Source of the DNA: Candidatus Melainabacteria bacterium RIFCSPHIGHO2_02_FULL_34_12
GTDB lineage: Bacteria; Cyanobacteriota; Vampirovibrionia; 2-02-FULL-35-15
Reading direction: 5' to 3'
DNA: 64,000 nucleotides
NCBI GenBank assembly: GCA_001784555.1
Contig: MFRM01000003.1
Location: 188,615-252,614, forward strand
Shown here: piece after piece, positions 9,419 to 25,024 of the stretch
Numbering within the stretch: position 1 is the stretch's first letter
Layout of the letters: each line of letters opens with the position of its first letter
Position numbers and translations under genes: made by a program
The notes under the pieces: model-generated
Database searches by the model: none
What the model saw: only the letters and a program-made list of their open reading frames with translations
What the model was told of the DNA's origin: nothing

Positions 9419-10846
9419 ATGTCATTAAAAGTTCAAGCACAACCAAAACCCGCCAAGCCGTTTAATTTTTATCCTATAAGACGAGAAAACACTGGCGGGC
9501 AAGAAACTTATTCGGCAGAATCAACAGATGGTTTTATTCCGGGTATTGCATTTGAGGCATATTTAAAATTATCTGCCATAACTGCAAGTTCAAACGGGCA
9601 TGGTTTTCCTATAAAACCAGGCGGTATAGCACTCTGGAGTGGAAAAGGATTAGCTAAAAGTTTCGAGGGGAAAGATACTGAACTTGCAAGCAAGGTTCAG
9701 CCTTTTATGCCTGACCCGAATGCTTTTAAAGTAGGAGAGGCAATAGTAGTAAATAACGTAGCAGCAGTAAGACTTCAATACGGCAGACATGCAGTCTGGG
9801 AAGCTTTATCCCTAAATGGAGATGAGATTAGTCAGGAAGAAAGAGAAAGAATTGAAACTACTTTTGATTTAAGATTTAGAATTCCAGAAATAGAATCTTA
9901 TGCAATTCCTATTACCACAAGAACATTTAAAGGACTTTCAGATGATGTTTACAAAAAAATATCTGCTAAATTACCAGCTCCTAAAACCACCGATAAAAAA
10001 GAATTTGACTTACCATCAGGAAGAAAGCTTTATTTAAGAATGAACAAATCATACAGATCCTGGGTAGCCATTCCTGAAAACAAAATTGCACTTAGTGATG
10101 AAGAAAGAAAAGAAATAGAAGATTTTTTTGGTTTAGAATTTAAATATAAACTTCCCTCAGTAGATAGAGGTGACATAGTTTGCTGGGGACAGGATGCAGG
10201 TAAATATTTCGAGGGTTTTAAAAGAACTGTTGCTGCTCAATTAATTAAAAAACTGCCTGACCCTGAAACATTTGCAGAAAATACTAAGGAGCTCGAAAGA
10301 GACGGTATTAAAATTACCTTTACTAAAAAGGTAAGCAGAGGAGGAAACCTTGTCTGGACAGTTAGTAAAAACAAACATAAAGATGCTGCTTATGTACTTG
10401 AGTTGGAAAGAAAGATTAAATTACTGCCGGTACCGAAAGATGCAATAATTTGCTGGGGAAAATTTGCAGCACTATTTTGGAAAGAAGCTGCCAGTGATAA
10501 AGATGGAACTCAAAGATTTAATTACAAGATAAGAAAACATCTTCCGGAACCAAAAGGCTTTGTTAAAGAAACAGATCAAAACAAGGCTATTCTAAGAGGA
10601 GAGCACAAAAAAAAATGTACGGTTTATGTAGGGAAAAATGAAGAAGGCTATTTTTTCTGGTACGTTAAAAAAGAAGAGAGAGAAATCTTCAGTGAAATTA
10701 CGGGGTTAACGCCAGAAACCTTTTTTGAAGTACCTGTTACTGCTCGAGATAATAATGGAAGAGGACATACAGCAGAAACACATGAGTTAGAAATACCAAT
10801 GGGAAGATACTGTAAGCCAAGACATGTCAGGCTCCGCTCACACTAA
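9419..10846 (+). CDS. Hypothetical protein with about four internal 90-95-aa repeats
   Basis: 475 aa. Recurring blocks: 'EERERIETTFDLRF', 'EERKEIEDFFGLEF', 'EEREIFSEITGL'; 'DIVCWGQDAGKYF' / 'AIICWGKFAALFW'; 'KLPAPK' / 'KLPDPETF' / 'HLPEPKGF'. Confidence 0.6.
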   Translation: MSLKVQAQPKPAKPFNFYPIRRENTGGQETYSAESTDGFIPGIAFEAYLKLSAITASSNGHGFPIKPGGIALWSGKGLAKSFEGKDTELASKVQPFMPDPNAFKVGEAIVVNNVAAVRLQYGRHAVWEALSLNGDEISQEERERIETTFDLRFRIPEIESYAIPITTRTFKGLSDDVYKKISAKLPAPKTTDKKEFDLPSGRKLYLRMNKSYRSWVAIPENKIALSDEERKEIEDFFGLEFKYKLPSVDRGDIVCWGQDAGKYFEGFKRTVAAQLIKKLPDPETFAENTKELERDGIKITFTKKVSRGGNLVWTVSKNKHKDAAYVLELERKIKLLPVPKDAIICWGKFAALFWKEAASDKDGTQRFNYKIRKHLPEPKGFVKETDQNKAILRGEHKKKCTVYVGKNEEGYFFWYVKKEEREIFSEITGLTPETFFEVPVTARDNNGRGHTAETHELEIPMGRYCKPRHVRLRSH

Positions 10847-10853
10847 ATATTTA

Positions 10854-13800
10854 TTACTTAAGTTCCTTCGGAAGATTTTCATACGATGCTTGAAATCTAT
10901 AAGAATTTTCACCTGACAACTCTTCAAAGTTCGAGTTATTCAGAATAACCTTCTCAAATGTTTTGCAGTACCTATCATAATAAATAATTACACCTGTCTT
11001 TTCATCTTTTGATTTAATGTAAAGTTTAACAGCATTTTTATCTGAATCTTCCTTTACTATTGCATATTGAGTTCCGTTACTCTTTGACGGCTCAGACCAT
11101 TTACCTACATTAGATTTTGCATCCAGATATCCTAAATAACTTTCTATATTTCTCTTGAGAGAATCATAATCGCCATAGTAATATTTATCGCTTTCTTTTA
11201 TCTTTATTTGACCCAGTATCTGACTGCAGATTTTTCTTGCTTCATCAGTCTGTCCTAGTTTTTCATTTATTAATATGATATTCATCCAATAACTTAAAAG
11301 AAATGATTTTTCAATAGGATAAAGTAACTCTAATGACTTCAGATATTTTAATGATTCATTGTAGCTGCCATTTTCATTATTAAGCAATTCTGCATATCTT
11401 AAAACATTTTGATCAAACATGTTTCTGTTAATCCTAGAAGCCCTATCAGTTCTGACTAGTCCAATAGATAAATTAATTCCTGCTAAAAGTGCTTTTTTAC
11501 GTTCTTCTACACTTCCATATTTCTCAGCATATCTAATCCATGCCTCTGCCATGATCTGAAACTGTTTTTCTCCCTCTAATGTTGTTAATTCTGGATTTGT
11601 TTTGAGATTATTAACTCCAAGCTCTAAGGTTAAAAGTGCCTCGGATGAAGCTGATTTTATATGTTCAGATGTAATTGCATAATGTTGAGCAAGAAGTATG
11701 GAAAGCCTCATATTCATAGGATTTTTCTTAATAAGATCTTTTAATGCCAGAGCAAATGCATCATGATTTCCTTTATTTCTTAAGACAAGAGCCTTATGTA
11801 ATTCAACTTCTAATTCATGTTCAGGAATAGATTTTTCAAGTTTTATAAAAGTGTCCAACGCATTATTAACACTTTCAGGAATATCTTCCCATTTACCGTT
11901 AATCTGAATTTTTCTTTCTTCTCCGCCAAAAGTTTTTGGCTTAATGTATACAAGATAACTTTTATTATTTTTTTCTGTCTTATAAAGTTTTGCTCCTGTT
12001 GAATAAGTAAAATCCCTCAATTCTGGAGTTTCTTCTTGAACATTTAATTTTTTTACTGATATTCCATTCATATCATTAAAAACAGTAAGATAATCTTCAG
12101 CTGCTGATTGCAGGCTTACTATTGATCTGGAAGTATCTTCCATAATTGATTTATAAGCATTTCTAATGGGAGTTAAATTTTCAGGAGTGGCAAAAACAAA
12201 ATATTTTTTCCCATAAAGCACCTGCGCACAAGCAATTCTTACTTTTTCTGGCTGGGTTTTATCACCTAAGCATGATATAAGAGTCGGCAAAACTTCCGGA
12301 GTCTGATTAAAATGACTTAATAATCTAATGGCTGCTTCTTTTGAGCTTTCAGAAGAATTTTTATCTGCTAAAATTGATTTTACTTCTTCAAATATTTTTA
12401 ATTTATCGGCTATAAAAGAATCTGGTTCCAATAAACAAAATCCAGGAAATACTTCAGATCTAGCATACAGGTGTACTAAATTAAGATTTCCATTAATTAT
12501 ATTTAATTCATTATATCGATCTGTAAATCTAAGTATTTTCTTAAATATAGGCAGCCTGGCTACACGGATATTTTTATTATCTAAAAATAAGTTTATGGAT
12601 TTTGAAACAATTTCTGAATACACCTTTCTAGCACCTTCATTAAGAGAAGGTTCACTGTTTGTGTTATTCCATATTAGTGAAATAACATAAATGCAATCCT
12701 CTTTTTTTAATTCTGGGTTGCCATTCATCATCTCCATTACATTTTTAACCAGTTCAAGCCTGGGATTTTTTCTGGCAAACATCTCTTGAATCTGAGACTT
12801 TGTACCGCTGCTCAAATCTTTATTAAAAAGCATAGACATAAGCATTTCATCATATACAGCACTTGCAAGTTCATTTCTTACCGAGGAAAATTTTGAAAAA
12901 GCTATAGATCTCCATATAAGAGTAAATTTCTCAAGTCTTTCTTTTGGATCTTTTATTTCTAGAAGCTTTTTTAAAACAGAATCCAGAGTTAAAAAATCTT
13001 TCCCAAGATATTCATGTCCTCTCATATCAGCCGGCTCATCATAAGGGCTGTTAGCATCTTCTTCTTCTAGGATTCTTGAAATTAAATCAATATAATCAAA
13101 TCTTCCAGGGAATTTTGTTACACCTTTAAGCTCTTTATACATTGCAGTCAATCTGATCATTTCAGCTTCTTTTTCATTTTTAGTTTCTTTTAGTTCTGCC
13201 ATCTCTTTTATAAGAGCTTTTATTTCATCTGAAGGATCTTCTCCTATATTTCTAATCCATATTCCGTTGACCATTTTCCCGAATAACTGAGTGTCATATC
13301 TTCGAAAATGAATTTTATCAGCCAGATCCCCAGTCGAAGTGAATACCAGCTCTTCCTGACGTTGCTGTACTTTTTCATTATTTTGAGTAAATATTTCATT
13401 AAGAATTCTGCCTAATTTGTTCTCACTTTCATCATCATTATTCTGCCTGGCAATAACCATTTCATTATAAATAGGTAAAAGTGCATACTGACTGAGCTTT
13501 ATAAGCTCTGATTTTTTCTCTTCAGAAGTAAAGTCACCGCCTACTAAATCTTTTATAAGTTCAGTTGCTCTTTTTGCCTTACTTTCCCATTCTGCAAGCT
13601 CCTGAGATTTATAAACGGGATTATTTGTCCAGTTTAAATCCTTATCTTCCCTTAAAGATTCTTGCTTAGTTTTACATTCTTGCCTGAAATCATCCGTATA
13701 TTTTCCTGCATTTTCTTCTTTTGTAATTTCACTGAGTAATTTTTCTTCGTTTTTCCAGGTCATTTCTATATATTGGGTTATTCTTGCTATTGTTGCAGCA

Positions 13801-14474
13801 CTTCCTTCCATAAAACGACCTGAACTTTTAAAACTGCTAATTTCTGCTACCAGTGTTTCTTCAGCAAGTTTTCTGTTTTGATAAATTTTCTGAATGTTTT
13901 TACTGGTGTATTCCGAACGATACTTAGCTGAGATTTTTATTACACCTTCAGGAATAACAACTGCATCATCAGGATAAAAATACTTAAATGTCTCACTTTC
14001 TTCTTCTAAGCGCCTTATTTTTATTTCTCCTCTTCCAGAAACACGATAATAATTTTCGCCTGATTTTACTGTAACAAAAGATTCTTTATCAAATGTATTT
14101 TTTTCTCCTTTATTTTCAACAATTTCAGTTTTTTCTTCTTTCGGAGGTGGTGCAACCGGTGGTTCCATCGTTTTAGCAGGATCTGAATTATTAGGAGGAG
14201 GCGGTATTGGCGGAGGATTTACAGAAGGCTTCATTGGATTTGAGTTATTTGAGTTAAAAGATGATTTATTTCTCTCAGGTGCAATAAGAAATTTAGGTTT
14301 TGCTTTTTTAAAAGGTGCAGCTTCTGGCATAGAAGGGCTCTGCATCTGCACAGAATCTTGCGAAGAATTCATAGGAGTTTTAGTTAATTCCGGATTAACT
14401 GTTGGTTTAGTTCTGTTAGGTATGATTAAAAGCTTGGTTTTTGGTTTCAGCGAAGTAGCTTCAGATTTATCCAT
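10854..14474 (-). CDS. Large hypothetical protein (Pro-rich N-terminus, helical-repeat/TPR-like C-terminal part)
   Basis: ORF 10854..14498. The ATG at 14474 is preceded by AGGGGA at a good spacing. 'PPPIPPPPNNSDPAKTMEPPVAPPP' low-complexity tract. No signal peptide or TM seen. No family recognised. Confidence 0.6.
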   Translation of the reverse strand: MDKSEATSLKPKTKLLIIPNRTKPTVNPELTKTPMNSSQDSVQMQSPSMPEAAPFKKAKPKFLIAPERNKSSFNSNNSNPMKPSVNPPPIPPPPNNSDPAKTMEPPVAPPPKEEKTEIVENKGEKNTFDKESFVTVKSGENYYRVSGRGEIKIRRLEEESETFKYFYPDDAVVIPEGVIKISAKYRSEYTSKNIQKIYQNRKLAEETLVAEISSFKSSGRFMEGSAATIARITQYIEMTWKNEEKLLSEITKEENAGKYTDDFRQECKTKQESLREDKDLNWTNNPVYKSQELAEWESKAKRATELIKDLVGGDFTSEEKKSELIKLSQYALLPIYNEMVIARQNNDDESENKLGRILNEIFTQNNEKVQQRQEELVFTSTGDLADKIHFRRYDTQLFGKMVNGIWIRNIGEDPSDEIKALIKEMAELKETKNEKEAEMIRLTAMYKELKGVTKFPGRFDYIDLISRILEEEDANSPYDEPADMRGHEYLGKDFLTLDSVLKKLLEIKDPKERLEKFTLIWRSIAFSKFSSVRNELASAVYDEMLMSMLFNKDLSSGTKSQIQEMFARKNPRLELVKNVMEMMNGNPELKKEDCIYVISLIWNNTNSEPSLNEGARKVYSEIVSKSINLFLDNKNIRVARLPIFKKILRFTDRYNELNIINGNLNLVHLYARSEVFPGFCLLEPDSFIADKLKIFEEVKSILADKNSSESSKEAAIRLLSHFNQTPEVLPTLISCLGDKTQPEKVRIACAQVLYGKKYFVFATPENLTPIRNAYKSIMEDTSRSIVSLQSAAEDYLTVFNDMNGISVKKLNVQEETPELRDFTYSTGAKLYKTEKNNKSYLVYIKPKTFGGEERKIQINGKWEDIPESVNNALDTFIKLEKSIPEHELEVELHKALVLRNKGNHDAFALALKDLIKKNPMNMRLSILLAQHYAITSEHIKSASSEALLTLELGVNNLKTNPELTTLEGEKQFQIMAEAWIRYAEKYGSVEERKKALLAGINLSIGLVRTDRASRINRNMFDQNVLRYAELLNNENGSYNESLKYLKSLELLYPIEKSFLLSYWMNIILINEKLGQTDEARKICSQILGQIKIKESDKYYYGDYDSLKRNIESYLGYLDAKSNVGKWSEPSKSNGTQYAIVKEDSDKNAVKLYIKSKDEKTGVIIYYDRYCKTFEKVILNNSNFEELSGENSYRFQASYENLPKELK

Positions 14475-14625
14475 TTTCAATCCCCTGTTCAATTTCAATA
14501 GTCATTTCAAAAGGACTAGTCCATCCCATGCTTATCCAAAGCCAATGATAAATAGAAATTTATAGGTGTGTACAAATTATGCAATTAATTTTTTCTAATG
14601 TATTAAAGCCAAGTTAAGTAAATAT

Positions 14626-15896: not shown

Positions 15897-16298
15897 ATGA
15901 AAAAGAAACTGTTCGTCGTATTACTTGCAGTAAGCTTTTTGCTTCCAATCGGAATCACACAAGCCCAAGCAGCAGGCGGTGATATTTTAAAACAAACCAC
16001 TGGTGTTGTACTCGGAGTAGGTGTTGGTCCTGTTATTGGTGGAGCAAGAGGTTTTACCAAAGGCTGGCTTTGGGGAAAAGATGCTACCGCTGAAGCACTT
16101 GGAGACAAAGACGGTGTTGCTCAACAAGCTCTTGGTTTTGCTACCGGCGGAGTTGTCGGAGCAGCAGCAGGCGGAGTATCCGGCGTATTAATGGGTGCAT
16201 ATGATGGCATCAAATACGGCTGGGATAAGCCTTGGTCTAAAGAAAACTTTAGCTGGGCAGGCGATGGATTTACTGATTACGAACCATTTAAATGGTAA
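15897..16298 (+). CDS. Secreted glycine-rich (glycine-zipper-like) small protein
   Basis: 133 aa. Signal peptide 'MKKKLFVVLLAVSFLLPIGITQAQA'. 'GVVLGVGVGPVIGGARG' and 'GGVVGAAAGGVSGVLMGA' tracts. Confidence 0.6.
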   Translation: MKKKLFVVLLAVSFLLPIGITQAQAAGGDILKQTTGVVLGVGVGPVIGGARGFTKGWLWGKDATAEALGDKDGVAQQALGFATGGVVGAAAGGVSGVLMGAYDGIKYGWDKPWSKENFSWAGDGFTDYEPFKW

Positions 16299-16463: not shown

Positions 16464-16979
16464 ATGCGAATCAGCTCAGATAATGTACCACCAGTAATAT
16501 CAGCTACAGAATCAGCTTCAAATGATGGTTTTACAAACTTAGTTCTATCAAGAAAACGCCACGAAAAGATTTTAATAGATGATGGAAATATAGCCGTTAC
16601 AGTCGTAGAAATAAAAGGAGATAAAGTAAGGCTAGCTATAAACGCTCCTACAGAGCAGGCACTTTTCCCAATAAATGGACAAGGTTGGATAATAAATGAG
16701 CAAGCAACACCAACAGAAGATCGACCTGAGGTGTGGAATATTCAAAGGCTCAATGCTGTTGGACCACTAATTAAAGTTAGTATAGTCTCAATTAGAGGTA
16801 ACAGAGTAAGGATATCAGTTAGTACACTGCCACAAATAAATATTCAAAGAGAGGAAGTAGCTGCCACTCCTTCAGATCTTGAAGGTGGACTTGTAAGAGC
16901 ACTAAAGACAAGTGAAACAGTAGGCATCTTTGCACCAGACCCAAGCGCAATTATTAGATACACCCCTCCAGTTAAATAA
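16464..16979 (+). CDS. Tandem (two-domain) CsrA-like RNA-binding protein
   Basis: 171 aa. Domain 1 'LVLSRKRHEKILIDDGNIAVTVVEIKGDKVRLAINAP' matches CsrA beta1-beta4. Domain 2 'IKVSIVSIRGNRVRISVSTLPQINIQREEV' matches CsrA beta3-beta5, including the 'I.REE' strand. AGGAG lies upstream of the ATG. Confidence 0.7.
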   Translation: MRISSDNVPPVISATESASNDGFTNLVLSRKRHEKILIDDGNIAVTVVEIKGDKVRLAINAPTEQALFPINGQGWIINEQATPTEDRPEVWNIQRLNAVGPLIKVSIVSIRGNRVRISVSTLPQINIQREEVAATPSDLEGGLVRALKTSETVGIFAPDPSAIIRYTPPVK

Positions 16980-17231: not shown

Positions 17232-17831
17232 ATGAAAAAGAAGATTTTAAGTTTAATTTTAGTCCTTTTGATGTTTGGTTTACAGTCTATAAATATAAAA
17301 GCAAAAGCAGGTACAGCACAAGTGCCGTTAAATATTACTGTAAACGGCTCACTGGTTATAACCGATGCTGATAACGACAATATGAGCGGAGTAGACCCAA
17401 CTAGAAGTGTAACCATTCAAGTTACTCCTGATCTCCTTCAATCACAAGTTACAGGAGGCATAAACTTTAGAATAAGAACAAATAAAACTGCATGGAGACT
17501 TACTACTAACAGAACTGCAAGTAATGCAGGCGGAACCGGGCTTATCGATAGTGACATTTCAGTAACCATTGCTAAATCCGCAGGTACAACTGGAAATCTA
17601 AATGCAGGAACTATTGTTTCTCCATTTAATGCTGCTACAAACCTTACCAGCATTCCTACCTCAGGTTCCAAAGACGTCATAAGCGGTACAGCCAGAACAT
17701 CCAGTGCTAAAGACAGCACTAACCAAAACAATTACTTTCAGGTAAACACTCTCTATGGAGTAGCACCAGATTTCTTTTATACACCAGGCACCTTTAGTAC
17801 CATCATTACTTATAACCTGGTTGCACCATAA
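17232..17831 (+). CDS. Secreted WxL-like fibre/surface subunit, paralogue 1
   Basis: GGAGGG then ATG at 17232. Signal peptide 'MKKKILSLILVLLMFGLQSINIKAKA'. Shares 'VPLNITVNGSLVIT', 'NFRIRTNKTAWRLTT', 'NLNAGTIVSPF' and 'DFFYTPGTFSTIITYNLVAP' with paralogues 2-5. Confidence 0.75.
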   Translation: MKKKILSLILVLLMFGLQSINIKAKAGTAQVPLNITVNGSLVITDADNDNMSGVDPTRSVTIQVTPDLLQSQVTGGINFRIRTNKTAWRLTTNRTASNAGGTGLIDSDISVTIAKSAGTTGNLNAGTIVSPFNAATNLTSIPTSGSKDVISGTARTSSAKDSTNQNNYFQVNTLYGVAPDFFYTPGTFSTIITYNLVAP

Positions 17832-17860
17832 GTAGGGGCGTATGGCCATACGCCCCTACT
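17831..17860. repeat. GTAG-type REP palindrome (AGTAGGGGCGTATGG|CCATACGCCCCTACT)
   Basis: Perfect 30-nt palindrome abutting the stop codon of paralogue 1, followed by GGGTTTTG. May also act as a terminator. Confidence 0.85.
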
Positions 17861-18172
17861 AGGGTTTTGCTCTAAAACTTCAGGATCTATCTCCCATAAA
17901 GTAAATCATAAAAAATCCGATGACTAATTTTGTGTGGACAAACTGAATACTTAGATAAGGAGGAATGAAATGAAGATGGTTGTTTTTCTTATGGCTAGGA
18001 AAAACCAATATATCCTGCTCAACAGTTTGTCCATGCTTTATATATAACGCGCTGAATATATAGACCAATCAGCTTAGTAATAAAGTCCAGTTATATTTAA
18101 GATTCTTTCAAAAATTGCATAGCTTTGTGGCATGTAAATAAAGAGGGGTTATCCCATTTATTTATATTCCAC

Positions 18173-20869
18173 ATGAGATATTTACTAAAAAAAATATCTG
18201 TTTATATTGCTTTTACAGCAATGGTATTTTATTTGTTACCCGTTCAAATGCAGGCCCAGATTATCTCCACACAAGCAAATAATTTACAAAGCCAAACTGA
18301 TAATTTAGAACCTCCTGAAGTTATATTGAATGATCAAAAAATTATATTTAATAAAAAGCCCATTCTTGACAGCGAAGGCTGGCTTTTTCCTCTGGAAGAA
18401 ATTGCAGTAAAGCTTCAGGATAAAATAAGCACTGATCTTGTAAATGGAATAATTACAATTCAAAGAAACAGGGATAAATCAATTGTTCAGTTAAACGTAA
18501 AAAACGGAGTGGTTACTGTAAATAACAGACCATTTAGAACTCTTCTTGGATTTAACAGAATACTTCTGGGTGCAGATGCACAAATGGTTCCTACCAGTGC
18601 TCTAGTAATACTTTTAAGACTTACATCAGAAGACAAGGAAGATGGAAAACTAGTCTTAAAAAATACAGTCTTTGACGATATAACTATCTCAAGAACCATT
18701 CAGCCTAAAGCAAGGACAGGATTAAAAGATTTATTAGTAGATTATTTAACTGTAACAAATGGTTTTAACTGGTATAAGACACAGAATTTTATCTCACGCA
18801 GAACTGAAATAAACAGCGGATTTCATAATGATAAATATGCACTTACTTCTGATCTGGTTTTAACAGCAGGAACTGGAGCACCTTTAGTTAATCTATACGG
18901 TGGTAACTTTTCTTTTTACAAAAACAATTCTCCGTTTCAGATACATGTTGGTGACAGACCTTTAAGTCTAATTAAATCACCCCTTCTTGGCGGGATTACC
19001 ATGCGCGGTATACAGATTCAAACTGATGGCAAACTTAAAGACAGCAGATTTGTTTTTAGCTCAGGCTTGCTTCCTACAAACAGTAAAGTTATTGGCAGAA
19101 ATCTTCCATTTGTAAGATATGGAAGATTAGCTGAAATAGCAGAATGGTCGTCTTCCCCAAATAAACCATGGCAATATTCAATTGGTCAGGCAATTTACAC
19201 TGATTTAATTGCTAACCAGCTTATAAGAACTGAACAAAGCGGGGGACTTTTTGCACTTAGTGCTGCAAAGTCAGGGAAATATATTGAAGGTGTTTCAAAT
19301 CTTGCATTAAGCACTGCAAAAGATGAATTATCAGGCAAGGCAGAATCCGGTCCTGGAGCTGATTTACTGGTAAGATTAAAACCAAAAGACTGGTTTAGTA
19401 TTTTTACAAAAGGTGCTTATTATGCCCCAGGATTTTATGCTTTATCAGGAAATCCTTATTACACAAGCAGAAATGAAGCTACATGTGGAATTAATATAAC
19501 TCCGCCAAGATCAAATCTAAGCATCAGTGAGTCTGTTGGACAATATAATTTAAATGCAAAAAGACCAAATGATTATAAAATTACAAATCTTTCATTTTCT
19601 ACAACACCAGTTAAAAATGGTCCGACTCTTATAACCACATATTCAAAAAATGACTCTAAAATAAGTGCGACAAGAGCCATTGATAATATACTTTTCCCTA
19701 TTAATAATTCAAACCTTTCTACTGTAGACCTTGAAACGTTAATTGAAAGAAGGACAAATTCATTTTTTAGAACCAGCTTAATAAAGAGCTGGCGAACTGT
19801 AAATTTCACTTCCAGTTTTAATTATTTTACTTTTAGTCAGGACAACCCGTTAAGAGCTCCAATTCTTGGCAGTAAAGCCGTAAACACTTTCTGGACATAT
19901 GATTTTAATATAAACAAATATTTAAACAGATACACAGGATTACAAACTTATTTTCAAGGAAGTGAATTATATAAACAAGTCAGATTTGGTTTAAATCTTG
20001 GACCAGTTTTAAATAACAAACTAAGCTTTCAGGTTCAAACCGGTGCATTGCTTCATCCTGATTCAAATCCTACAGGAATTTACAGCTTAAACTTAAATTA
20101 TCAGGTAAACAAGAAAAATCAGTTTAGTTTAAGCCTTGATAAGACTGCTTACCAGACAAATTTATCCACGCTCTGGCAATATAATCTAAGACCAACCAGA
20201 GGCGGTTCTCTTTCTAGAATTGGGGAGGAACAATCTATAGGCAGAATTCACGGAAGAGTTCTTGTTCTGGAAGAACCTAAAAAACAACAACCCGACCCGA
20301 ATAAAATACTTTTACCTGGACTAAGCAGGGAAAGAGGAATTGCAAACATAAGAATTCATCTGGGGAATTACACTATTGCTACTGATGAAACTGGCAGATT
20401 TGAATTCCCAAGTCTGACACCTGGTATTCATACACTGAGAGTTGAATATTCTGATCTACCTTCATATTTGACTTCAATTACACCAGAAACTGTGGACGTA
20501 AAAGTAGAACCAGCAAAAGAAACAAACTATAGTTTTGTGCTTGCTTATTTTGGATCAGTAAACGGAAAACTCCTTTTAGCCAATGAACCTCCCCTTACCC
20601 TTGAAGAAGAACCAGAGCTTCAGGATATAAGAGTATATCTGGAAGGTACTGAGTTTGAAACACTTACAAATTTAGACGGCAGTTTTGAACTGGGAGATGT
20701 AAAACCTGGTAAATATAAACTTAAGGTAGATCCTGATTTTCTACCAGAAGCACTTGCAATTACTGAACAAGAAATTGAAATAAAAGTAGACGCAAAAGGG
20801 AAAGTTGAAAATATACAGTTGCCTATAAAATATAAAGAAAAAGAAAAACAAATTAAAGAGTTTAATTAA
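18173..20869 (+). CDS. Usher-like outer-membrane protein (N-terminal stalk-like domain, central beta-barrel-like region, two C-terminal CarboxypepD_reg-like beta-sandwiches)
   Basis: ORF 18125..20869. The ATG at 18173 gives the signal peptide 'MRYLLKKISVYIAFTAMVFYLLPVQMQAQ'. N-terminal 'VILNDQKIIFNKKPILDSEGWLFPLEEIAVKL' resembles copper-amine-oxidase-N-like domains. About 500 aa carry alternating-hydrophobic strands ('FSLSLDKTAYQTNLSTLWQYNL', 'YSLNLNYQV'). The C-terminus has 'GRIHGRVLV...TDETGRFEFPSLTPGIHTLRV' and 'GSVNGKLLL...TNLDGSFELGDVKPGKYKLKV'. Confidence 0.65.
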   Translation: MRYLLKKISVYIAFTAMVFYLLPVQMQAQIISTQANNLQSQTDNLEPPEVILNDQKIIFNKKPILDSEGWLFPLEEIAVKLQDKISTDLVNGIITIQRNRDKSIVQLNVKNGVVTVNNRPFRTLLGFNRILLGADAQMVPTSALVILLRLTSEDKEDGKLVLKNTVFDDITISRTIQPKARTGLKDLLVDYLTVTNGFNWYKTQNFISRRTEINSGFHNDKYALTSDLVLTAGTGAPLVNLYGGNFSFYKNNSPFQIHVGDRPLSLIKSPLLGGITMRGIQIQTDGKLKDSRFVFSSGLLPTNSKVIGRNLPFVRYGRLAEIAEWSSSPNKPWQYSIGQAIYTDLIANQLIRTEQSGGLFALSAAKSGKYIEGVSNLALSTAKDELSGKAESGPGADLLVRLKPKDWFSIFTKGAYYAPGFYALSGNPYYTSRNEATCGINITPPRSNLSISESVGQYNLNAKRPNDYKITNLSFSTTPVKNGPTLITTYSKNDSKISATRAIDNILFPINNSNLSTVDLETLIERRTNSFFRTSLIKSWRTVNFTSSFNYFTFSQDNPLRAPILGSKAVNTFWTYDFNINKYLNRYTGLQTYFQGSELYKQVRFGLNLGPVLNNKLSFQVQTGALLHPDSNPTGIYSLNLNYQVNKKNQFSLSLDKTAYQTNLSTLWQYNLRPTRGGSLSRIGEEQSIGRIHGRVLVLEEPKKQQPDPNKILLPGLSRERGIANIRIHLGNYTIATDETGRFEFPSLTPGIHTLRVEYSDLPSYLTSITPETVDVKVEPAKETNYSFVLAYFGSVNGKLLLANEPPLTLEEEPELQDIRVYLEGTEFETLTNLDGSFELGDVKPGKYKLKVDPDFLPEALAITEQEIEIKVDAKGKVENIQLPIKYKEKEKQIKEFN

Positions 20870-21010
20870 AAGTACCAGGACAAAAATCTCAACTTTTTAG
20901 TACATATATCCCTAAATTATTCAGTCTAGGAAACAGATACCGATACCTAGACCAGATAACCGATGGGCGGTTTAGTAATAATCGAAAAGTAGTTACAAAA
21001 GGAGATTTTT

Positions 21011-21607
21011 ATGAATAAAAAATTACAGGGAATATTTTTGATTTTGCTTCTAATTGGAAGCATTGCATATTGTCCAAGTGTTGATGCAGCTGCAACAGTT
21101 CCGTTATCAATAACTGTTAACGGGTCACTTGTTATCACAGCTGCTGATGATGACACAATGTCAGGAAAAGACCCAACAAGAGCTGTTACTATTAATTTGA
21201 CACCTGATATTGGTCATACTCTGCAAAGCGGCAGTGCTAATTTCCGAATAAGAACAAACCGCACTAATTGGAGATTTACAGCTCAAAGAACAGCTTCAGA
21301 TGCAGGTGGAACAGGAATTGCTGATGCTGATATTTTAGTTGATATTGCAAAATCTGCAGGGACCAGTGCTAATTTAAACGCAGGTGCTTTAGTGGCTCCA
21401 TTTACTGCTCAAACTAATTTATCCAGTATTTCAACCACTGCTGCAGTAGATGTTATTAGCGGAACAGCAAAAACATCATCTGCAAAAGACAACAGTAATA
21501 CTAATAACTGGTTTCAGGTAGGTACAACCTACAGCATACAACCTGACTTCTTTTATGCTCCAGGAACATTTAGTTCGACTATCACATATAACCTGGTATC
21601 ACCATAA
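21011..21607 (+). CDS. Secreted WxL-like fibre/surface subunit, paralogue 2
   Basis: AAAGGAG then ATG. Signal peptide. 'ATVPLSITVNGSLVIT', 'NFRIRTNRTNWRFTAQRTAS', 'NLNAGALVAPF', 'DFFYAPGTFSSTITYNLVSP'. Confidence 0.75.
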   Translation: MNKKLQGIFLILLLIGSIAYCPSVDAAATVPLSITVNGSLVITAADDDTMSGKDPTRAVTINLTPDIGHTLQSGSANFRIRTNRTNWRFTAQRTASDAGGTGIADADILVDIAKSAGTSANLNAGALVAPFTAQTNLSSISTTAAVDVISGTAKTSSAKDNSNTNNWFQVGTTYSIQPDFFYAPGTFSSTITYNLVSP

Positions 21608-21637
21608 CAGCAATTTGCCAATTTGCTATTTTGCTGT

Positions 21638-21666
21638 GAAGAGGCGTCTCGACGAGGCGCCTCTTC
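21638..21666 (+). terminator. GC-rich hairpin after paralogue 2 (GAAGAGGCG...CGCCTCTTC)
   Basis: 9-bp perfect stem with an 11-nt loop, 30 nt after the stop codon. T-rich sequence follows. Confidence 0.45.
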
Positions 21667-21808
21667 ATCTTTATTGGATATTTATTCCTAAACCATTTTT
21701 ACGATCTTGGATTTTCTGGTACATTACTACCACTATTACAAAATAAACATAACTATTTCAGGGCAAGAATATCTTAGCAAAAGATATTCTTGGAGAGAAA
21801 TAATAAAA

Positions 21809-22408
21809 ATGAAAAAATGGATCTACTGTTTGATCTTAATTGTCACATTAATTATTATTTCTTTGCCATCTAAAACATTTTCCCAAACCGCAACAGTACC
21901 TATAAACATTACAGTAAACGGAACACTTACTATTTCAGATGCTAATAACGATGCAAGCGGAGGGAAGAACCCGAATTTAACCGTCAATTTAACTCTGACT
22001 CCTGATCTTGGAGGACCTGCTGCAATAGGTGCTGCAAATTTCAGAATTCGTACAAATAGATCCAGCTGGAAACTTACTGCACAAAGAACCACAGAAAACG
22101 ACAATGGGCCAACAAACATTTTAGCCATGGATGTAATAGTCGGGATTTCAACAATGGTTGGCTTAAATGCAAATCCAAATGCAGGAGTTCTTGTAGCACC
22201 GTTTAACGCTGCAACTGATCTTAGTCAGGTTTCTACATCTGTTCCAGTTACAGTAATTGAAGGTAAATCAAAAACATCAACACAAAGAGACAGCACAAAC
22301 CTAAACAATTTCTTTGAAGTAAACACTGTTTATGGCATTGCTTCAGACTTTTACTATCAACCAGGCACATGGAGTACAACTATTACTTACAGTCTGGTTA
22401 GCCCATAA
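21809..22408 (+). CDS. Secreted WxL-like fibre/surface subunit, paralogue 3
   Basis: ORF 21707..22408. The ATG at 21809 follows GGAGAG and gives the signal peptide 'MKKWIYCLILIVTLIIISLPSKTFSQ'. 'ATVPINITVNGTLTIS', 'NFRIRTNRSSWKLTAQRT', 'NPNAGVLVAPF', 'DFYYQPGTWSTTITYSLVSP'. Confidence 0.75.
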   Translation: MKKWIYCLILIVTLIIISLPSKTFSQTATVPINITVNGTLTISDANNDASGGKNPNLTVNLTLTPDLGGPAAIGAANFRIRTNRSSWKLTAQRTTENDNGPTNILAMDVIVGISTMVGLNANPNAGVLVAPFNAATDLSQVSTSVPVTVIEGKSKTSTQRDSTNLNNFFEVNTVYGIASDFYYQPGTWSTTITYSLVSP

Positions 22409-22454
22409 GAGAACGTATCGGAGTGTCGGAGTAACGGCGTATCGGCGAGAGAAC
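22409..22454 (+). repeat. Octanucleotide array (GAGAAC|GTATCGGA|GTGTCGGA|GTAACGGC|GTATCGGC|GAGAGAAC)
   Basis: Period-8 GC-rich units starting at the base after the stop codon of paralogue 3. Confidence 0.8.
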
Positions 22455-22719
22455 AAGAAAAACATAATGGCAAAAGAATAAAAGCAAGTGCTTTTGAATT
22501 CTCTTGCATTATGAAATACGCCGATATGCCAATATTTAAGACAGCCCTACTGGTTATCATCAGACTTTATATTTTCTTCTTAACAATTAATGGTTACTAC
22601 TGCTTTTGTCTGCTAGAAGGCTTGAATTTACTGGCTTTTTTACGATATAGTATATTAGAACTAGTCTGACTAAGCGATGAGTCAGCCTTGTTTCCTAGCC
22701 AATAATCATCCTTCATTTC

Positions 22720-23331
22720 ATGACTCAAAAAAACACAATAAGTGTATTAGTACTGGTTTTTCTTATTTGCACATACCTTTATGGTACAAGCAACCTAAGT
22801 GCAAAATCAAATCAGGCAACAGTTCCAATTAATATAACAGTTCAAGGAAAGCTGGTTTTAACTGATTCAGTAAACGATAACAAATCAGGTGAAAATCCTA
22901 CCTTAAATGTTTTCTTAAAGCTTACGCCGGACATAAATAATTCAATAGTATCTGGCAATTCAGCAATAAGAATAAGATCAAATTTAAACAGCTGGAAACT
23001 TACAGCTCAAAGAAGTGATCAAAATAATTCTTTAGTAAATATTGATCCTAAAGATATCTCAATCACTTTTTCAACACAAGCAGGAGCAAATGCAGATCCA
23101 AATGCCGGAAAATTAGTTTCTCCATTTAATAAAACTGCTGACTTAAGTCAAATTTCTATTAATTCTCCCTTAGACTTAGTAATAGGAAACAGTAAAACCT
23201 CTCTTACAAGAGATTCACAGAATAAAAACAACTGGTTTCAGCTTACATCCAGTTACAGCATTTCACCGGACTTCTTTTATGAAATCGGGGAATGGGGCAC
23301 AACTGTTAGTTATAATCTCGTAAGTCCATAA
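22720..23331 (+). CDS. Secreted WxL-like fibre/surface subunit, paralogue 4
   Basis: 203 aa. Hydrophobic N-terminus. 'ATVPINITVQGKLVLT', 'AIRIRSNLNSWKLTAQRS', 'DPNAGKLVSPF', 'DFFYEIGEWGTTVSYNLVSP'. Confidence 0.7.
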   Translation: MTQKNTISVLVLVFLICTYLYGTSNLSAKSNQATVPINITVQGKLVLTDSVNDNKSGENPTLNVFLKLTPDINNSIVSGNSAIRIRSNLNSWKLTAQRSDQNNSLVNIDPKDISITFSTQAGANADPNAGKLVSPFNKTADLSQISINSPLDLVIGNSKTSLTRDSQNKNNWFQLTSSYSISPDFFYEIGEWGTTVSYNLVSP

Positions 23332-23380
23332 GAGAACGGATCGGCGAGCCGGCGATGGGGCGATTCGCCGGTTCGTTTTC
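23332..23380 (+). repeat. Octanucleotide array (GAGAAC|GGATCGGC|GAGCCGGC|GATGGGGC|GATTCGCC|GGTTCGTT)
   Basis: Starts at the base after the stop of paralogue 4. Can also fold: GAGCCGGCGA pairs with TCGCCGGTTC. Confidence 0.8.
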
Positions 23381-23405
23381 TTATGCTATATTTTACTTTG
23401 AGTAT

Positions 23406-23957
23406 ATGAGAACTAAATTAGTGGTATTTTTTCTTTTACTTACCATTCTACAGATGAATCTTAATTCTGCATTTGCCTGCTTTTCAATTACAGATGATTT
23501 AAATTTCCCAAATCCGGTATTAAATGCTAATTTCAGTCTTCTTCCTGACATTAGTCCATTTACAGACTGCTGGAACGGGACTATTAGAATAAGAAGCAAT
23601 AAGAACGGATGGAGATTAGTTGCAAGCCGGTCAGGTCCAGATCCGATAAATGTTTCCGGTGACAGCAAAGATAATATAAAAGCAGACGATATAACCTTAA
23701 ATTATAAGTTAAAAAGCTTTGGTATGGCTGATCCAAATGGTGCTGTTTTAGTATCCCCTTTTACCAGTGAAACTAATTTATCATATATTCAGAATGGTAC
23801 TTTAATTGTCTCTGGCATTGAAAAATCAGGCGGCAGTTGCTCTTCCACAAATCAAAACTTTTATCAGTTAAAAAAAGATGTTTGTTTATTTCGTGATTTT
23901 GTTTTTAATGTGGGAGAATATAATGGACAAATATCTTATCTTCTGATTGCACCGTAA
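23406..23957 (+). CDS. Divergent Cys-containing WxL-like subunit, paralogue 5
   Basis: ORF 23355..23957. The ATG at 23406 gives the signal peptide 'MRTKLVVFFLLLTILQMNLNSAFA'. Keeps 'TIRIRSNKNGWRLVASRS', 'DPNGAVLVSPF' and 'GEYNGQISYLLIAP'. Lacks the conserved N-terminal 'ATVP.NITVNG' strand and has 5 Cys. Confidence 0.7.
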   Translation: MRTKLVVFFLLLTILQMNLNSAFACFSITDDLNFPNPVLNANFSLLPDISPFTDCWNGTIRIRSNKNGWRLVASRSGPDPINVSGDSKDNIKADDITLNYKLKSFGMADPNGAVLVSPFTSETNLSYIQNGTLIVSGIEKSGGSCSSTNQNFYQLKKDVCLFRDFVFNVGEYNGQISYLLIAP

Positions 23958-24003
23958 TAGAACGTGTCGGCGAACCGGCGTATGGGCGTATCGGCGAAAG
24001 AAC
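23958..24003 (+). repeat. Octanucleotide array (TAGAAC|GTGTCGGC|GAACCGGC|GTATGGGC|GTATCGGC|GAAAGAAC)
   Basis: Starts at the base after the stop of paralogue 5. Confidence 0.8.
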
Positions 24004-24061
24004 AGAAGAAAGAAAGAAACAGCAAAAGGGCAAAAGGTGAAAGGAAAGGAGAAAGAAAAAT

Positions 24062-25024
24062 ATGAATAGAAATAAAATCACAATAAGTTTTATATTTTTC
24101 ATATCTGCTTTGTTTTTATATACTCAAGGTTCTGTATTGGCCTGGACAGTATCTCCAGTCAGATATGAAATAAAAGCTGAAAGAGGGAAAGAATACACTC
24201 TTACTTTTTCAGTACTAAATGAAAGTCAGCTTTATCAAAAAAGATTTGAGATTCATACTGATGACTGGACTATAGATAAAAACAATAATTTTTTAAGAAA
24301 AGCATTTAATAAAGAAGTTAATAATAAATATTCAGCAACTTCATGGGTAAAAGTTACACCACAACAATTTGTAGTCCCTCCAGGCGAAACTAAAAATATT
24401 AGATTTACAATTAGTGTACCTGCAGACATTCCAAGTGAAGGCGAATATTCCAGTGGAATATTTGTAGGAGAAAGAAATATAGAAAAACCTCCAAAAGGAG
24501 AAAAAGTAGTACATATCAAACAAGACACTTTTATAGGTGTGGTTTTATATGTTCGAATTGGCGCAGAAAAAAGGGAAATATCCCTAAAAGATTTAATAGT
24601 TAATTCAGTACCTCTTCCAAACGGAGTAAACAAAGTTATTGTTTCTCCTGTCTATCAAAACACAGGAAATATACATTCAAGAGGACAAATACAAGTAAAG
24701 TTAGAACCTGCAGCTGAGGTAGCTCAGGATAAAGATACAAAAAAAATCGAATTTAAAGGTGGCGAAGCTGTTGTCTTAAGAGAATCTGAGCTTGCCTTTC
24801 CAGTTGAGATACCACAATTACTTCTGGCAAACACTGAGTGGCAATTTACAATAAGCACTGATTTTGGGCATGACATTCCGGTGCTTGTAGGCACAAAAAA
24901 ATATAAAGTACCCTTCATAGAAATTCCTAAAACCACAATAAAAGAAGAAAAGAAAATAAAAGAAGGTAACAAAGCAGAAGATTTGGTTAAAGAAAAACTG
25001 GAACAAAAAAAGAAAAAAAAGTAG
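24062..25024 (+). CDS. Secreted Ig-like chaperone-like / DUF916-like protein
   Basis: 320 aa. Signal peptide. 'WTVSPVRYEIKAERGKEYTLTFSVLNES' and 'SWVKVTPQQFVVPPGETKNIRFTISVPADIPSEGEYSSGIFV' resemble both PapD-type chaperone strands and DUF916 partners of WxL proteins. Lys-rich C-terminal tail, with no TM anchor. Confidence 0.6.
   Translation: MNRNKITISFIFFISALFLYTQGSVLAWTVSPVRYEIKAERGKEYTLTFSVLNESQLYQKRFEIHTDDWTIDKNNNFLRKAFNKEVNNKYSATSWVKVTPQQFVVPPGETKNIRFTISVPADIPSEGEYSSGIFVGERNIEKPPKGEKVVHIKQDTFIGVVLYVRIGAEKREISLKDLIVNSVPLPNGVNKVIVSPVYQNTGNIHSRGQIQVKLEPAAEVAQDKDTKKIEFKGGEAVVLRESELAFPVEIPQLLLANTEWQFTISTDFGHDIPVLVGTKKYKVPFIEIPKTTIKEEKKIKEGNKAEDLVKEKLEQKKKKK

What the first reader, a model, noticed from the sequence alone, without database searches (positions are those of the whole stretch)
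18173..20869. 914-aa protein with usher-like domain order but non-usher domains
Domain order by eye:
- A signal peptide.
- An about 100-aa domain resembling the copper-amine-oxidase-N / 'stalk' fold ('VILNDQKIIFNKKPILDSEGWLFPLEEIAVKL...VVTVNNRPF').
- About 500 aa of amphipathic beta-strand-like sequence rich in Y/F/N/S/T ('LSFQVQTGALL', 'YSLNLNYQV', 'FSLSLDKTAYQTNLSTLWQYNL').
- Two CarboxypepD_reg-like beta-sandwiches ('TDETGRFEFPSLTPGIHTLRV', 'TNLDGSFELGDVKPGKYKLKV').

A periplasmic N-domain, a barrel and two C-terminal Ig-like domains is the FimD/PapC usher logic. No usher sequence motif is recognisable, which suggests an analogous, independently assembled secretion pore.
Basis: inference. 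Interest (0 to 1): 0.72.

Follow-up and report, generated by a model that had tools for sequence, protein, structure and literature searches.

The report
Divergent chaperone-usher pilus locus, Melainabacteria
The 898-residue protein is very probably the outer-membrane assembly pore ("usher") of a previously undescribed and extremely divergent chaperone-usher-type surface-fibre system of non-photosynthetic cyanobacterial relatives, and its chaperone looks most like a protein of Gram-positive "WxL" adhesin clusters.

Summary
The ORF is real: 18173-20869 encodes 898 aa (914 only from an upstream TTG).

AlphaFold2 (moderate confidence) predicts about 23-24 long beta-strands in the middle. Foldseek's ten best PDB hits are all FimD/PapC ushers (E 5.6e-15 to 9e-10).

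The gene sits in a conserved cluster: five paralogous ~200-aa secreted proteins and a 320-aa secreted protein. That protein folds confidently as a two-Ig-domain chaperone. It is closest to Enterococcus WxLIP, then to CfaA, PapD, CsuC and FimC.

All subunits but one per locus carry a ~12-residue N-terminal strand of alternating hydrophobic residues. This is the arrangement expected for donor-strand polymerisation with a tip subunit.

Related clusters occur in Melainabacteria, in an unidentified GC-richer clade and on Deinococcus plasmids.

So "usher logic" is supported. "Independently assembled, non-usher" is not favoured. Profile-profile alignment to E. coli ushers is collinear over 682 columns and lines up known usher motifs (45% probability, controls below 0.5%).

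I class it as a new variant of a known kind. No paper describing it was found.

The parts
17232..17831 (+). Subunit paralogue 1 (199 aa, secreted). It has the N-terminal strand 'AQVPLNITVNGSLVITDADND' and the C-terminal motif 'ITYNLVAP'.
   Evidence: subunit HMM 2e-91. No Pfam or NCBIfam family.
18173..20869 (+). Usher-like outer-membrane protein (898 aa): signal peptide, N-domain, beta-barrel, two C-terminal beta-sandwiches.
   Evidence: Foldseek top 10 are FimD/PapC; hhalign against E. coli ushers gives 45.6% probability.
18317..18664 (+). Periplasmic N-terminal domain (residues ~49-164), Cu_amine_oxidN1-like. It sits where the usher NTD sits.
   Evidence: PF07833, E 2.5e-5. (pLDDT 72-87). 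The same hit occurs in distant family members.
18725..20188 (+). Predicted transmembrane beta-barrel (residues ~185-672). About 23 strands are modelled from residue 245. Residues 167-245 are conserved but modelled at low confidence. There is a short conserved helical insert at 494-527.
   Evidence: DSSP strands. (all strong matches are OM barrels). (conservation).
20240..20842 (+). Two C-terminal CarboxypepD_reg/prealbumin-like beta-sandwiches (residues ~690-803 and 813-890). They sit where usher CTD1 and CTD2 sit.
   Evidence: hhalign aligns them with FimD CTD1/CTD2.
21011..21607 (+). Subunit paralogue 2 (198 aa).
   Evidence: 1e-93.
21636..21668 (+). Strong terminator-like hairpin (15-bp stem, 8 GC pairs) just after subunit gene 2.
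21809..22408 (+). Subunit paralogue 3 (199 aa from the ATG at 21809).
22720..23331 (+). Subunit paralogue 4 (203 aa).
23406..23957 (+). Divergent subunit paralogue 5 (183 aa). It lacks the ~12-residue N-terminal strand and has four conserved Cys. Candidate tip subunit.
   Evidence: gap in the alignment; the same position and the same truncation in L003, L005, L006, L007 and L008.
24062..25024 (+). Periplasmic chaperone-like protein (320 aa): signal peptide, two Ig-like domains, Lys-rich C-terminal helix.
   Evidence: pLDDT 85.8. Foldseek finds WxLIP at 4.5e-11, then CU chaperones. (WxLIP_PGBD, E 1.2e-4)..

Best explanation
The 898-aa protein is the outer-membrane usher of a highly divergent chaperone-usher-type fibre assembly system encoded by window 17232-25024.

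Proposed mechanism:
1. The five ~200-aa paralogues and the 320-aa protein are exported to the periplasm by Sec.
2. The 320-aa two-Ig-domain protein caps each subunit. It probably donates its long, conserved F1-G1 region as a strand and holds the invariant subunit C-terminus with the invariant Arg34.
3. Chaperone-subunit complexes dock on the N-terminal domain of the 898-aa protein.
4. Subunits are joined by exchange of their ~12-residue N-terminal strand and are threaded through the barrel. The C-terminal sandwiches act as the second docking site.
5. Paralogue 5, which lacks the N-terminal strand, enters first and ends up at the tip.

Shown here: the domain architecture, the predicted folds with their best structural matches, the conserved gene cluster, and the presence or absence of the N-terminal strand.

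Inferred: outer-membrane location, docking, strand exchange, polymerisation and order of assembly.

The system is most likely a very old, divergent homologue of classical ushers and chaperones rather than a convergent invention.
For: Structure of the large protein. The AF2 model has about 23 long strands plus an N-domain and two C-terminal sandwiches. Foldseek gives FimD/PapC as ranks 1-10 (E 5.6e-15 to 8.7e-10). Other barrels (TonB-dependent receptors, LptD) score about 1e-4.

Synteny. The order subunit, usher, three subunits, truncated subunit, chaperone is conserved in Melainabacteria loci L003 and L005-L008 and largely in L001; in L004 no chaperone or fifth paralogue was detected. A distant clade has the order chaperone, usher, subunits.

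Chaperone.
- AF2 pLDDT is 85.8.
- Foldseek finds WxLIP at 4.5e-11, then CfaA, PapD, CsuC, FimC, Caf1M and EcpB at 2e-9 to 1e-6.
- hhalign against 10 E. coli chaperones gives 69% for the Melainabacteria family alone, 85.6% for the merged family, both with signal peptides, and 35.5% (E 3.9e-4) for mature parts only. Arg34 aligns with FimC Arg8 (mature numbering), and 'VTPQQFVVPPGETKNIRF' aligns with 'VTPPLF...LRI'. The reversed control gives 0.4%.

Usher. hhalign against 8 E. coli ushers gives 45.6%, E 2.1e-4, over 682 collinear columns. Controls give at most 0.3%. The aligned blocks fall on usher motifs.

Subunits.
- The conserved mature N-terminus 'AtVPlniTVnGxLvIt' has alternating hydrophobic residues.
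- It is absent from exactly one paralogue per locus in Melainabacteria. In the distant clade the paralogue encoded right after the usher lacks it.
- The subunit families of the two clades are homologous (92.1%).
- The C-terminus '..TY.LVSP' is invariant.

Deinococcus. A homologous chaperone (97.4%) and large protein (91.8%) are clustered on three Deinococcus plasmids.
Against: - No component reaches any curated family threshold. There is no PF00577, PF00345 or fimbrial family hit.
- Profile-profile probabilities against E. coli ushers and chaperones are below the usual 90% level, and part of the chaperone signal came from signal peptides.
- The usher model is only moderately confident (mean pLDDT 66.7, pTM 0.41) and full-length TM-scores are 0.23-0.32.
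- The isolated FimD barrel (E 9.5e-6) scores little better than TonB-dependent receptors.
- No plug domain is confidently modelled.
Subunits show no significant similarity to CU pilins (0.9%).
- There is no experimental evidence of fibres in these uncultured organisms.
Confidence: 0.68

Rival explanations
1. The protein does the job of an usher but arose independently: an unrelated barrel fused to a stalk-type N-domain and transthyretin-like C-domains.
For: - There is no Usher Pfam hit, and the terminal domains match other Pfam families.
- hhalign of the close family alone against ushers gives only 1.8%.
- The barrel alone is no closer to FimD than to TonB-dependent receptors by Foldseek.
Against: - The alignment to ushers is collinear over the full length and well above controls once diversity is added.
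- The aligned blocks coincide with conserved usher motifs.
- The partner chaperone independently shows PapD-like fold and weak sequence signal.
- Convergence of the large protein together with its partner chaperone is less parsimonious than divergence.
Confidence: 0.2
2. The cluster exports monomeric WxL-like surface proteins that stay bound to the WxLIP-like partner or to the cell envelope, as proposed for Gram-positive WxL clusters. No polymer is formed, and the large protein is only a translocon or anchor.
For: - The chaperone's closest structural matches are WxLIP entries 9i25 and 9i1y.
- There is a weak WxLIP_PGBD hit.
- Subunits resemble WxL-like proteins at motif level.
- The WxL literature describes complexes, not fibres (PMC10599100, PMC9772566).
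Against: - Four to five paralogues per locus, with exactly one lacking the N-terminal strand in two distant clades, is the signature of ordered polymerisation.
- The chaperone-like protein has no transmembrane anchor.
- Subunits do not match the WxL Pfam family.
Confidence: 0.1
3. The protein is a general outer-membrane porin, an OM-peptidoglycan tether or a nutrient receptor (SlpA/OmpM-like or TonB-dependent-like). Its adjacency to the small secreted proteins is coincidental or SusCD-like.
For: - Foldseek also lists the Deinococcus SlpA complexes 8agd and 7zgx, TonB-dependent receptors and LptD at 4e-5 to 1e-3.
- Cu_amine_oxidN1 domains are common in cell-envelope proteins (my own knowledge).
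Against: - There is no TonB plug, SLH domain or other such domain.
- Ushers score 9-10 orders of magnitude better over the full length.
- Adjacency to the chaperone-like gene is conserved across Melainabacteria, a distant clade and Deinococcus.
Confidence: 0.02

Closest known systems
Classical chaperone-usher ushers FimD/PapC (Pfam Usher PF00577) with PapD-like chaperones
   Same: - Same order of parts: periplasmic N-domain, large barrel, two C-terminal beta-sandwiches.
- Best structural match.
- Adjacent two-Ig-domain chaperone and several small paralogous subunits, one of which lacks the N-terminal strand.
- Weak collinear profile similarity.
   Different: - No PF00577, PF00345 or fimbrial hits.
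- The N-domain scores as Cu_amine_oxidN1 and the C-domains as CarboxypepD_reg.
- No plug domain is confidently modelled.
- The chaperone has an extra Lys-rich C-terminal helix.
- The hosts are Melainabacteria and Deinococcus, not Proteobacteria.
Archaic (sigma) chaperone-usher systems (Csu of Acinetobacter, CupE of Pseudomonas)
   Same: - These are the most widely distributed CU class, reported also in Cyanobacteria and Deinococcus-Thermus (PMC4654587 holds all four search terms 'chaperone-usher', 'archaic', 'Cyanobacteria' and 'Deinococcus', but was not read here; my own knowledge of Nuccio and Baumler 2007).
- CsuC is among the chaperone's structural matches (E 2e-7).
   Different: Archaic systems still match PF00577, PapD and SCPU families. 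This cluster matches none of them.
WxL / WxLIP (DUF916-DUF3324) clusters of Gram-positive bacteria
   Same: - The chaperone-like protein's best structural matches are E. faecium WxLIP 9i25_C and 9i1y, and it has a weak PF06030 hit.
- An actinobacterial DUF916 protein hits the Deinococcus chaperone-likes by tblastn.
- WxLIP is predicted to complete the WxL sandwich with a donated strand (PMC10599100).
- Small ~170-200-aa partners share an N-terminal 'TV.V..G.L.IT' strand, an 'R....W' motif and a C-terminal 'T(Y/W/H).(L/V)' motif.
   Different: - WxL clusters have no outer-membrane component.
- WxLIP has a C-terminal transmembrane helix, which is absent here.
- The subunits do not match Pfam WxL. 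Similarity to actinobacterial WxL-like proteins is not significant (2%).
- No LPxTG protein or large WxL protein is present.
TonB-dependent receptors / SusC (which also carry a CarboxypepD_reg domain)
   Same: A large outer-membrane barrel and a CarboxypepD_reg-type domain.
   Different: - In SusC the CarboxypepD_reg domain is N-terminal (my own knowledge). Here there are two, and they are C-terminal.
- There is no plug (PF07715) or TonB-dependent receptor Pfam hit.
- Foldseek E-values are about 1e-4, against 1e-15 for ushers.

Membership tests
Chaperone-usher pathway: usher (PF00577) | Match to the curated Usher sequence family | tested here: not met
   No PF00577 hit at E<=1 for the window protein. 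None at E<=0.1 for distant relatives or for the Deinococcus protein. No NCBIfam hit.
Chaperone-usher pathway: usher (PF00577) | Remote sequence homology to ushers by profile-profile comparison | tested here: inconclusive
   hhalign against 8 E. coli ushers gives 1.8% with the close family. With the merged family and mature parts it gives 45.6%, E 2.1e-4, score 47.2 over 682 collinear columns. Reversed and cross-family controls score at most 22.5. Usher motifs are aligned.
Chaperone-usher pathway: usher (PF00577) | Large (24-stranded) outer-membrane beta-barrel | tested here: inconclusive
   AF2 models about 23 long strands at 245-670 plus a conserved low-confidence stretch at 167-245. The best Foldseek matches are ushers, and the FimD pore 3ohn_A gives TM-score 0.44.
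Chaperone-usher pathway: usher (PF00577) | Periplasmic N-terminal domain plus two C-terminal beta-sandwich domains flanking the barrel | tested here: met
   The architecture is conserved in distant members.
Chaperone-usher pathway: usher (PF00577) | Plug domain inserted between barrel strands 6 and 7 | tested here: inconclusive
   No ~80-residue globular insert is modelled with confidence. Candidates are residues 167-245, the weakly usher-aligned 269-345, and the helical insert at 494-527.
Chaperone-usher pathway: chaperone (PapD-like) | Adjacent gene for a secreted chaperone with two Ig-like domains | tested here: met
   AF2 pLDDT 85.8 with two beta-sandwich domains. Foldseek finds CfaA, PapD, CsuC, FimC, Caf1M, EcpB and others at 2e-9 to 1e-6. 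Adjacency is conserved.
Chaperone-usher pathway: chaperone (PapD-like) | Match to PapD_N/PapD_C families and the conserved Arg8/Lys112 pair | tested here: inconclusive
   No PF00345 hit. hhalign gives 35.5-85.6%, depending on whether signal peptides are included. The invariant Arg34 aligns with FimC Arg8. The Lys112 equivalent was not identified.
Chaperone-usher pathway: subunits | Incomplete Ig-fold pilins with an N-terminal donor strand, and a tip subunit without one | tested here: inconclusive
   Sequence only. A conserved alternating N-terminal strand is present in four paralogues and absent in the fifth, and this recurs in a distant clade. hhalign against E. coli pilins gives 0.9%.
WxL / WxLIP cluster | WxLIP: DUF916 (PF06030) plus DUF3324 domains and a C-terminal transmembrane helix | tested here: inconclusive
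   PF06030 scores E 1.2e-4, 22.5 bits, below the 27.3 cut-off, though several orthologues carry precomputed PF06030 hits. The best Foldseek matches are WxLIP. There is no DUF3324 hit, and the C-terminal helix at 291-319 is Lys/Glu-rich, not hydrophobic.
WxL / WxLIP cluster | Small and large proteins with the WxL domain (PF13731) | tested here: not met
   No PF13731 hit at E<=10 in ten subunits. hhalign against actinobacterial WxL-like proteins gives 2.1%. Only motif-level resemblance remains. There is no large WxL protein in the locus.
TonB-dependent receptor | N-terminal plug (PF07715) and TonB box ahead of a 22-stranded barrel | tested here: not met
   No such Pfam hits. Foldseek E-values are about 1e-4, far weaker than for ushers.

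The most novel reading that the evidence does not exclude
The WxL/WxLIP clusters of Gram-positive bacteria and this usher-containing cluster of diderm Melainabacteria and Deinococcus may be one ancient, Terrabacteria-wide donor-strand assembly system that is homologous to proteobacterial chaperone-usher pili.

On this reading:
- WxLIP is a membrane-tethered PapD-type chaperone.
- Small WxL proteins are pilin-like subunits.
- Large WxL proteins are two-part tip adhesins of the FimH type.
- The usher was lost together with the outer membrane in monoderm lineages.

That would place the origin of the chaperone-usher pathway before the split between Terrabacteria and Gracilicutes. It would also give WxL clusters a concrete mechanism.
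Probability: 0.35. Interest if true: 0.85.

Novelty: new variant of a known kind. Interest (0 to 1): 0.68.

Why it matters
- Chaperone-usher pili are regarded as essentially a proteobacterial invention, with 'archaic' outliers that are still recognisable by sequence. This cluster would be a branch so divergent that no curated model detects any of its three components. It sits in deep-branching diderm phyla, Melainabacteria (Cyanobacteriota) and Deinococcota.
- It is a vertically inherited core locus between lytB and a NUDIX gene in every Melainabacteria locus examined.
- It offers a bridge between usher systems and the mechanistically unexplained WxL/WxLIP adhesin clusters of Enterococcus, Listeria and Lactobacillus.
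- It also bears on how envelope machines changed when outer membranes were lost.
- Homologous clusters lie on plasmids of culturable Deinococcus strains, so the hypothesis can be tested at the bench.

Tried and rejected
- Direct sequence searches of the 898-aa protein, of its barrel profile and of the chaperone (single sequence and family profile) against PDB sequences found nothing useful. NCBIfam found nothing either.
- The subunit profile against PDB gave only chance hits.
- Pfam at E<=10 on ten subunits gave nothing.
- The exhaustive HMM search with the barrel profile found only 13 proteins in 1.84 billion representatives, and none is a recognised usher. The family is therefore small and isolated.
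- hhalign of subunits against E. coli pilins, actinobacterial WxL-like proteins and the small Deinococcus proteins was not significant once signal peptides were removed. The 42% seen with signal peptides included was an artefact, and I discarded it.
- I tried to obtain bona fide Firmicute WxL and WxLIP sequences from paper supplements and from the plasmid collection. The supplements hold images only, and the plasmid collection yielded only actinobacterial and Deinococcus relatives.
- The promoter scan showed no enrichment over shuffles.
- The TonB-dependent receptor, LptD, BamA and SlpA readings were rejected on domain content and much weaker fold scores.
- A lipoprotein reading of paralogue 5 (mature N-terminal Cys) was considered. 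It was rejected because the preceding residues (A-F/L-A) do not fit a lipobox (direct reading).
Full report
**Observation**

The + strand carries an ORF of 914 codons from a TTG at 18125. The coordinates given (18173-20869) start at an ATG and encode 898 aa plus a stop. A 100% identical 898-aa database protein and 27 full-length homologues (61-70% identity) use this start.

- Cu_amine_oxidN1 at residues 52-141 (E 2.5e-5, just above the curated cut-off).
- CarboxypepD_reg at 722-789.
- CarbopepD_reg_2 at 813-895.
- Nothing for residues ~150-700, and no Usher family hit.

NCBIfam and PDB sequence searches are empty.

**Structure of the large protein**

AlphaFold2 on a 28-sequence alignment gives a moderate model (mean pLDDT 66.7, pTM 0.41). 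It contains:
- an N-domain (49-164);
- a conserved but low-confidence stretch (167-245);
- about 23 long beta-strands joined by short turns (245-670), with one short helical insert (494-527);
- two beta-sandwiches (690-890).

Foldseek against the PDB returns FimD and PapC ushers as ranks 1-10 (E 5.6e-15 to 8.7e-10), aligned over the full length. TonB-dependent receptors, LptD, MtrB and SlpA follow at 4e-5 to 1e-3.

There are caveats. Full-length TM-scores are low (0.23-0.32), as expected for a flexible multi-domain protein and a mediocre model. The isolated FimD pore (3ohn_A, E 9.5e-6, TM 0.44) is not much better than a TonB-dependent receptor.

A barrel is predicted, and there is no clear match to a non-secretory OMP family.

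The large gene is flanked by five paralogous genes for ~200-aa secreted proteins:
- 17232-17831
- 21011-21607
- 21809-22408
- 22720-23331
- 23406-23957

They are followed by a gene for a 320-aa secreted protein (24062-25024).

HMMs built from the three families recover the order subunit, large protein, three subunits, divergent subunit, 320-aa protein in Melainabacteria loci L003 and L005-L008, and largely in L001. In L004 no fifth paralogue or 320-aa gene was detected. In the Melainabacteria loci examined the cluster lies between lytB and a NUDIX gene. It is therefore a vertically inherited chromosomal locus.

**The 320-aa protein**

AlphaFold2 is confident (pLDDT 85.8, pTM 0.73). It shows two Ig-like domains, a low-confidence loop at ~139-156 before the last strand of domain 1, and a Lys/Glu-rich C-terminal helix.

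Foldseek's best matches are:
- Enterococcus faecium WxLIP (9i25_C at 4.5e-11; 9i1y);
- then a long list of chaperone-usher chaperones, including CfaA, PapD, CsuC, FimC, Caf1M, EcpB, CupB2, DraB and SafB (2e-9 to 3e-6).

Pfam gives only a sub-threshold WxLIP_PGBD hit (E 1.2e-4), plus weaker sub-threshold hits to other Ig-like domains (fn3_5, ASH, Cep192, FixG_C).

hhalign against ten E. coli chaperones gives:
- 69% for the Melainabacteria family, with signal peptides;
- 85.6% after adding distant relatives, with signal peptides;
- 35.5%, E 3.9e-4, when signal peptides are removed from both sides;
- 0.4% for a reversed control.

The alignment pairs the invariant Arg34 in 'SPVRFEV' with FimC Arg8 (mature numbering). 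It also pairs 'VTPQQFVVPPGETKNIRF...P.DGE' with 'VTPPLF...LRI...LP.DRE'.

**The subunits**

They match no Pfam or NCBIfam family.

The family consensus begins after the signal peptide with 'AtVPlniTVnGxLvItDAxND', a strand of alternating hydrophobic residues with a central Gly. It ends with the invariant C-terminus '..TitYnLVSP'.

Paralogue 5 starts directly at 'C(F/L)SITDD'. It therefore lacks the first ~12 residues. It carries four conserved Cys and occupies the same position, just before the chaperone gene, in five of the other Melainabacteria loci (L003, L005-L008).

**Distribution**

An exhaustive HMM search with the barrel profile finds only 13 proteins (E<=1e-3) among 1.84 billion representatives. 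The four most distant full-length members (835-853 aa) have the same three-part architecture.

Named genomes are all Candidatus Melainabacteria or Caenarcanales.

The distant members come from contigs with ~50% GC, of unknown taxon. There the order is chaperone-like (272-289 aa), large protein, then one to four ~156-192-aa subunits. These subunits are homologous to those of the window (hhalign 92.1%, E 6.3e-7). In each of those loci the paralogue encoded right after the large gene lacks the ~14-residue N-terminal strand.

A tblastn search with the chaperone found three Deinococcus plasmids. Each carries a four-gene cluster. In it, the chaperone-like protein (97.4%, E 1.2e-11) and the ~1000-aa protein (91.8%, E 7.4e-7, full length) are homologous to the window's.

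**Homology or analogy to ushers**

- hhalign with the close family alone gives 1.8%.
- With the distant clade and Deinococcus added (Neff 4.0) and signal peptides removed, it gives 45.6%, E 2.1e-4, score 47.2, over 682 collinear columns.
- Reversed-template and cross-family controls score at most 22.5.

The best-aligned blocks are listed below. I recognise the E. coli sides as the conserved usher motifs from the eight-usher consensus.
- 'GTVQP..R.G.KDLLVDYL' with 'GYVPPE.WD.GINALLL.YN' at the barrel start.
- 'VGD...GGITMRGIQIQTDG' with 'LGD.YT.GDIFD..FRGV.LASDD'.
- 'IATDETGRFEFPSLTP' with 'RTD.RGYAVLPY.T.Y' in CTD1.
- The CTD2 'DG...L' block.

This falls short of proof. Taken with the chaperone signal and the structure matches, I judge divergence from a common ancestor about three times as likely as convergence.

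**Link to WxL clusters**

WxLIP (DUF916-DUF3324) is the conserved partner of WxL surface proteins in low-GC Gram-positives. AlphaFold2 predicts that a WxLIP hairpin strand completes the WxL beta-sandwich (PMC10599100). [quoted passage not shown] Neither term 'chaperone' nor 'PapD' occurs in PMC10599100. My literature searches found no link to ushers or to Melainabacteria.

Evidence gathered here:
- An Arthrobacter DUF916 protein hits the Deinococcus chaperone-likes by tblastn (E 2e-3).
- Actinobacterial small proteins next to DUF916 include one annotated as WxL and one with a weak PF13731 hit.
- These small proteins share four collinear motifs with the window's subunits: the N-terminal 'TV.V..G.L.IT' strand, 'R....W', 'NN..(W/F)....(V/I)..P.D', and the C-terminal 'Y..TIT(Y/H)S(V/L)'.
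- The hhalign probability is nevertheless only 2%.

The chaperone link is reasonably supported. The subunit link is a lead only.

**Mechanism proposed**

See the Best explanation section for the steps.

Shown: the architectures, the folds and their nearest structural neighbours, the conserved clustering across three lineages, and the one-paralogue-without-N-strand rule.

Inferred from established knowledge of the Fim, Pap, Caf and Csu systems: donor-strand complementation by the chaperone, docking at the N-domain, donor-strand exchange, tip-first assembly and secretion through the barrel.

**Verdict**

The 'usher logic' is supported and considerably strengthened by context. 'Independently assembled' is not favoured.

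This is a new, very divergent variant of the chaperone-usher kind, unannotated in public records ('hypothetical protein'). It may also have an important evolutionary tie to Gram-positive WxL/WxLIP clusters.

Noticed in passing
window 16464-16979 (+): A 171-aa protein with two CsrA domains (PF02599, E 6.9e-20, two stretches) lies directly upstream of the fibre cluster. A similar ORF was found only in L006 (E 5.6e-7). It might be a post-transcriptional regulator of the locus.
   Followed up: partly
window 15897-16298 (+): A 133-aa secreted Gly-zipper-like protein ending in 'FKW'. It is conserved between lytB and the cluster in the Melainabacteria loci that include that flank, often in 2-5 tandem copies (for example five in L001). 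It is unclear whether it belongs to the system.
   Followed up: partly
window 21636-21668 (+): A very stable terminator-like hairpin (15-bp stem) lies right after subunit gene 2. It is reminiscent of the stem-loops that raise major-pilin mRNA levels in fim and pap operons, and it suggests that paralogue 2 is the major subunit.
   Followed up: no
window 10854-14498 (-): A 1214-aa protein with a Pro-rich N-terminus and a long helical, TPR-like remainder. It was not analysed. The adjacent 475-aa protein (9419-10846, +) is internally repetitive.
   Followed up: no
L018 14063-16306, L020 12075-14321, L021 2975-5182: In all three Deinococcus plasmids a ~735-750-aa hypothetical protein with no Pfam hit lies next to the four-gene cluster. 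L021 also has a BTAD regulator fragment nearby. It may be a dedicated regulator.
   Followed up: no
L026 2139-5588 and 11636-16625; L028 1802-2467: In the distant GC-richer clade the cluster is flanked by two-component and GerE-type response regulators, and in L026 also by a GGDEF/HD-GYP protein. This hints at regulation linked to c-di-GMP or surface sensing.
   Followed up: no
window 18173-20869, C-terminus: The family consensus ends in '...EEIKEF' with an invariant Phe (F897 here, followed by one extra Asn). This resembles the C-terminal aromatic signal of outer-membrane proteins, even though the barrel is not C-terminal.
   Followed up: no
P0028 / L001 10001-13501; P0030-P0032: Some family members are much longer (1102-1531 aa). 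They carry 200-650 extra residues ahead of the Cu_amine_oxidN1 domain, and the nature of these residues is unknown.
   Followed up: no
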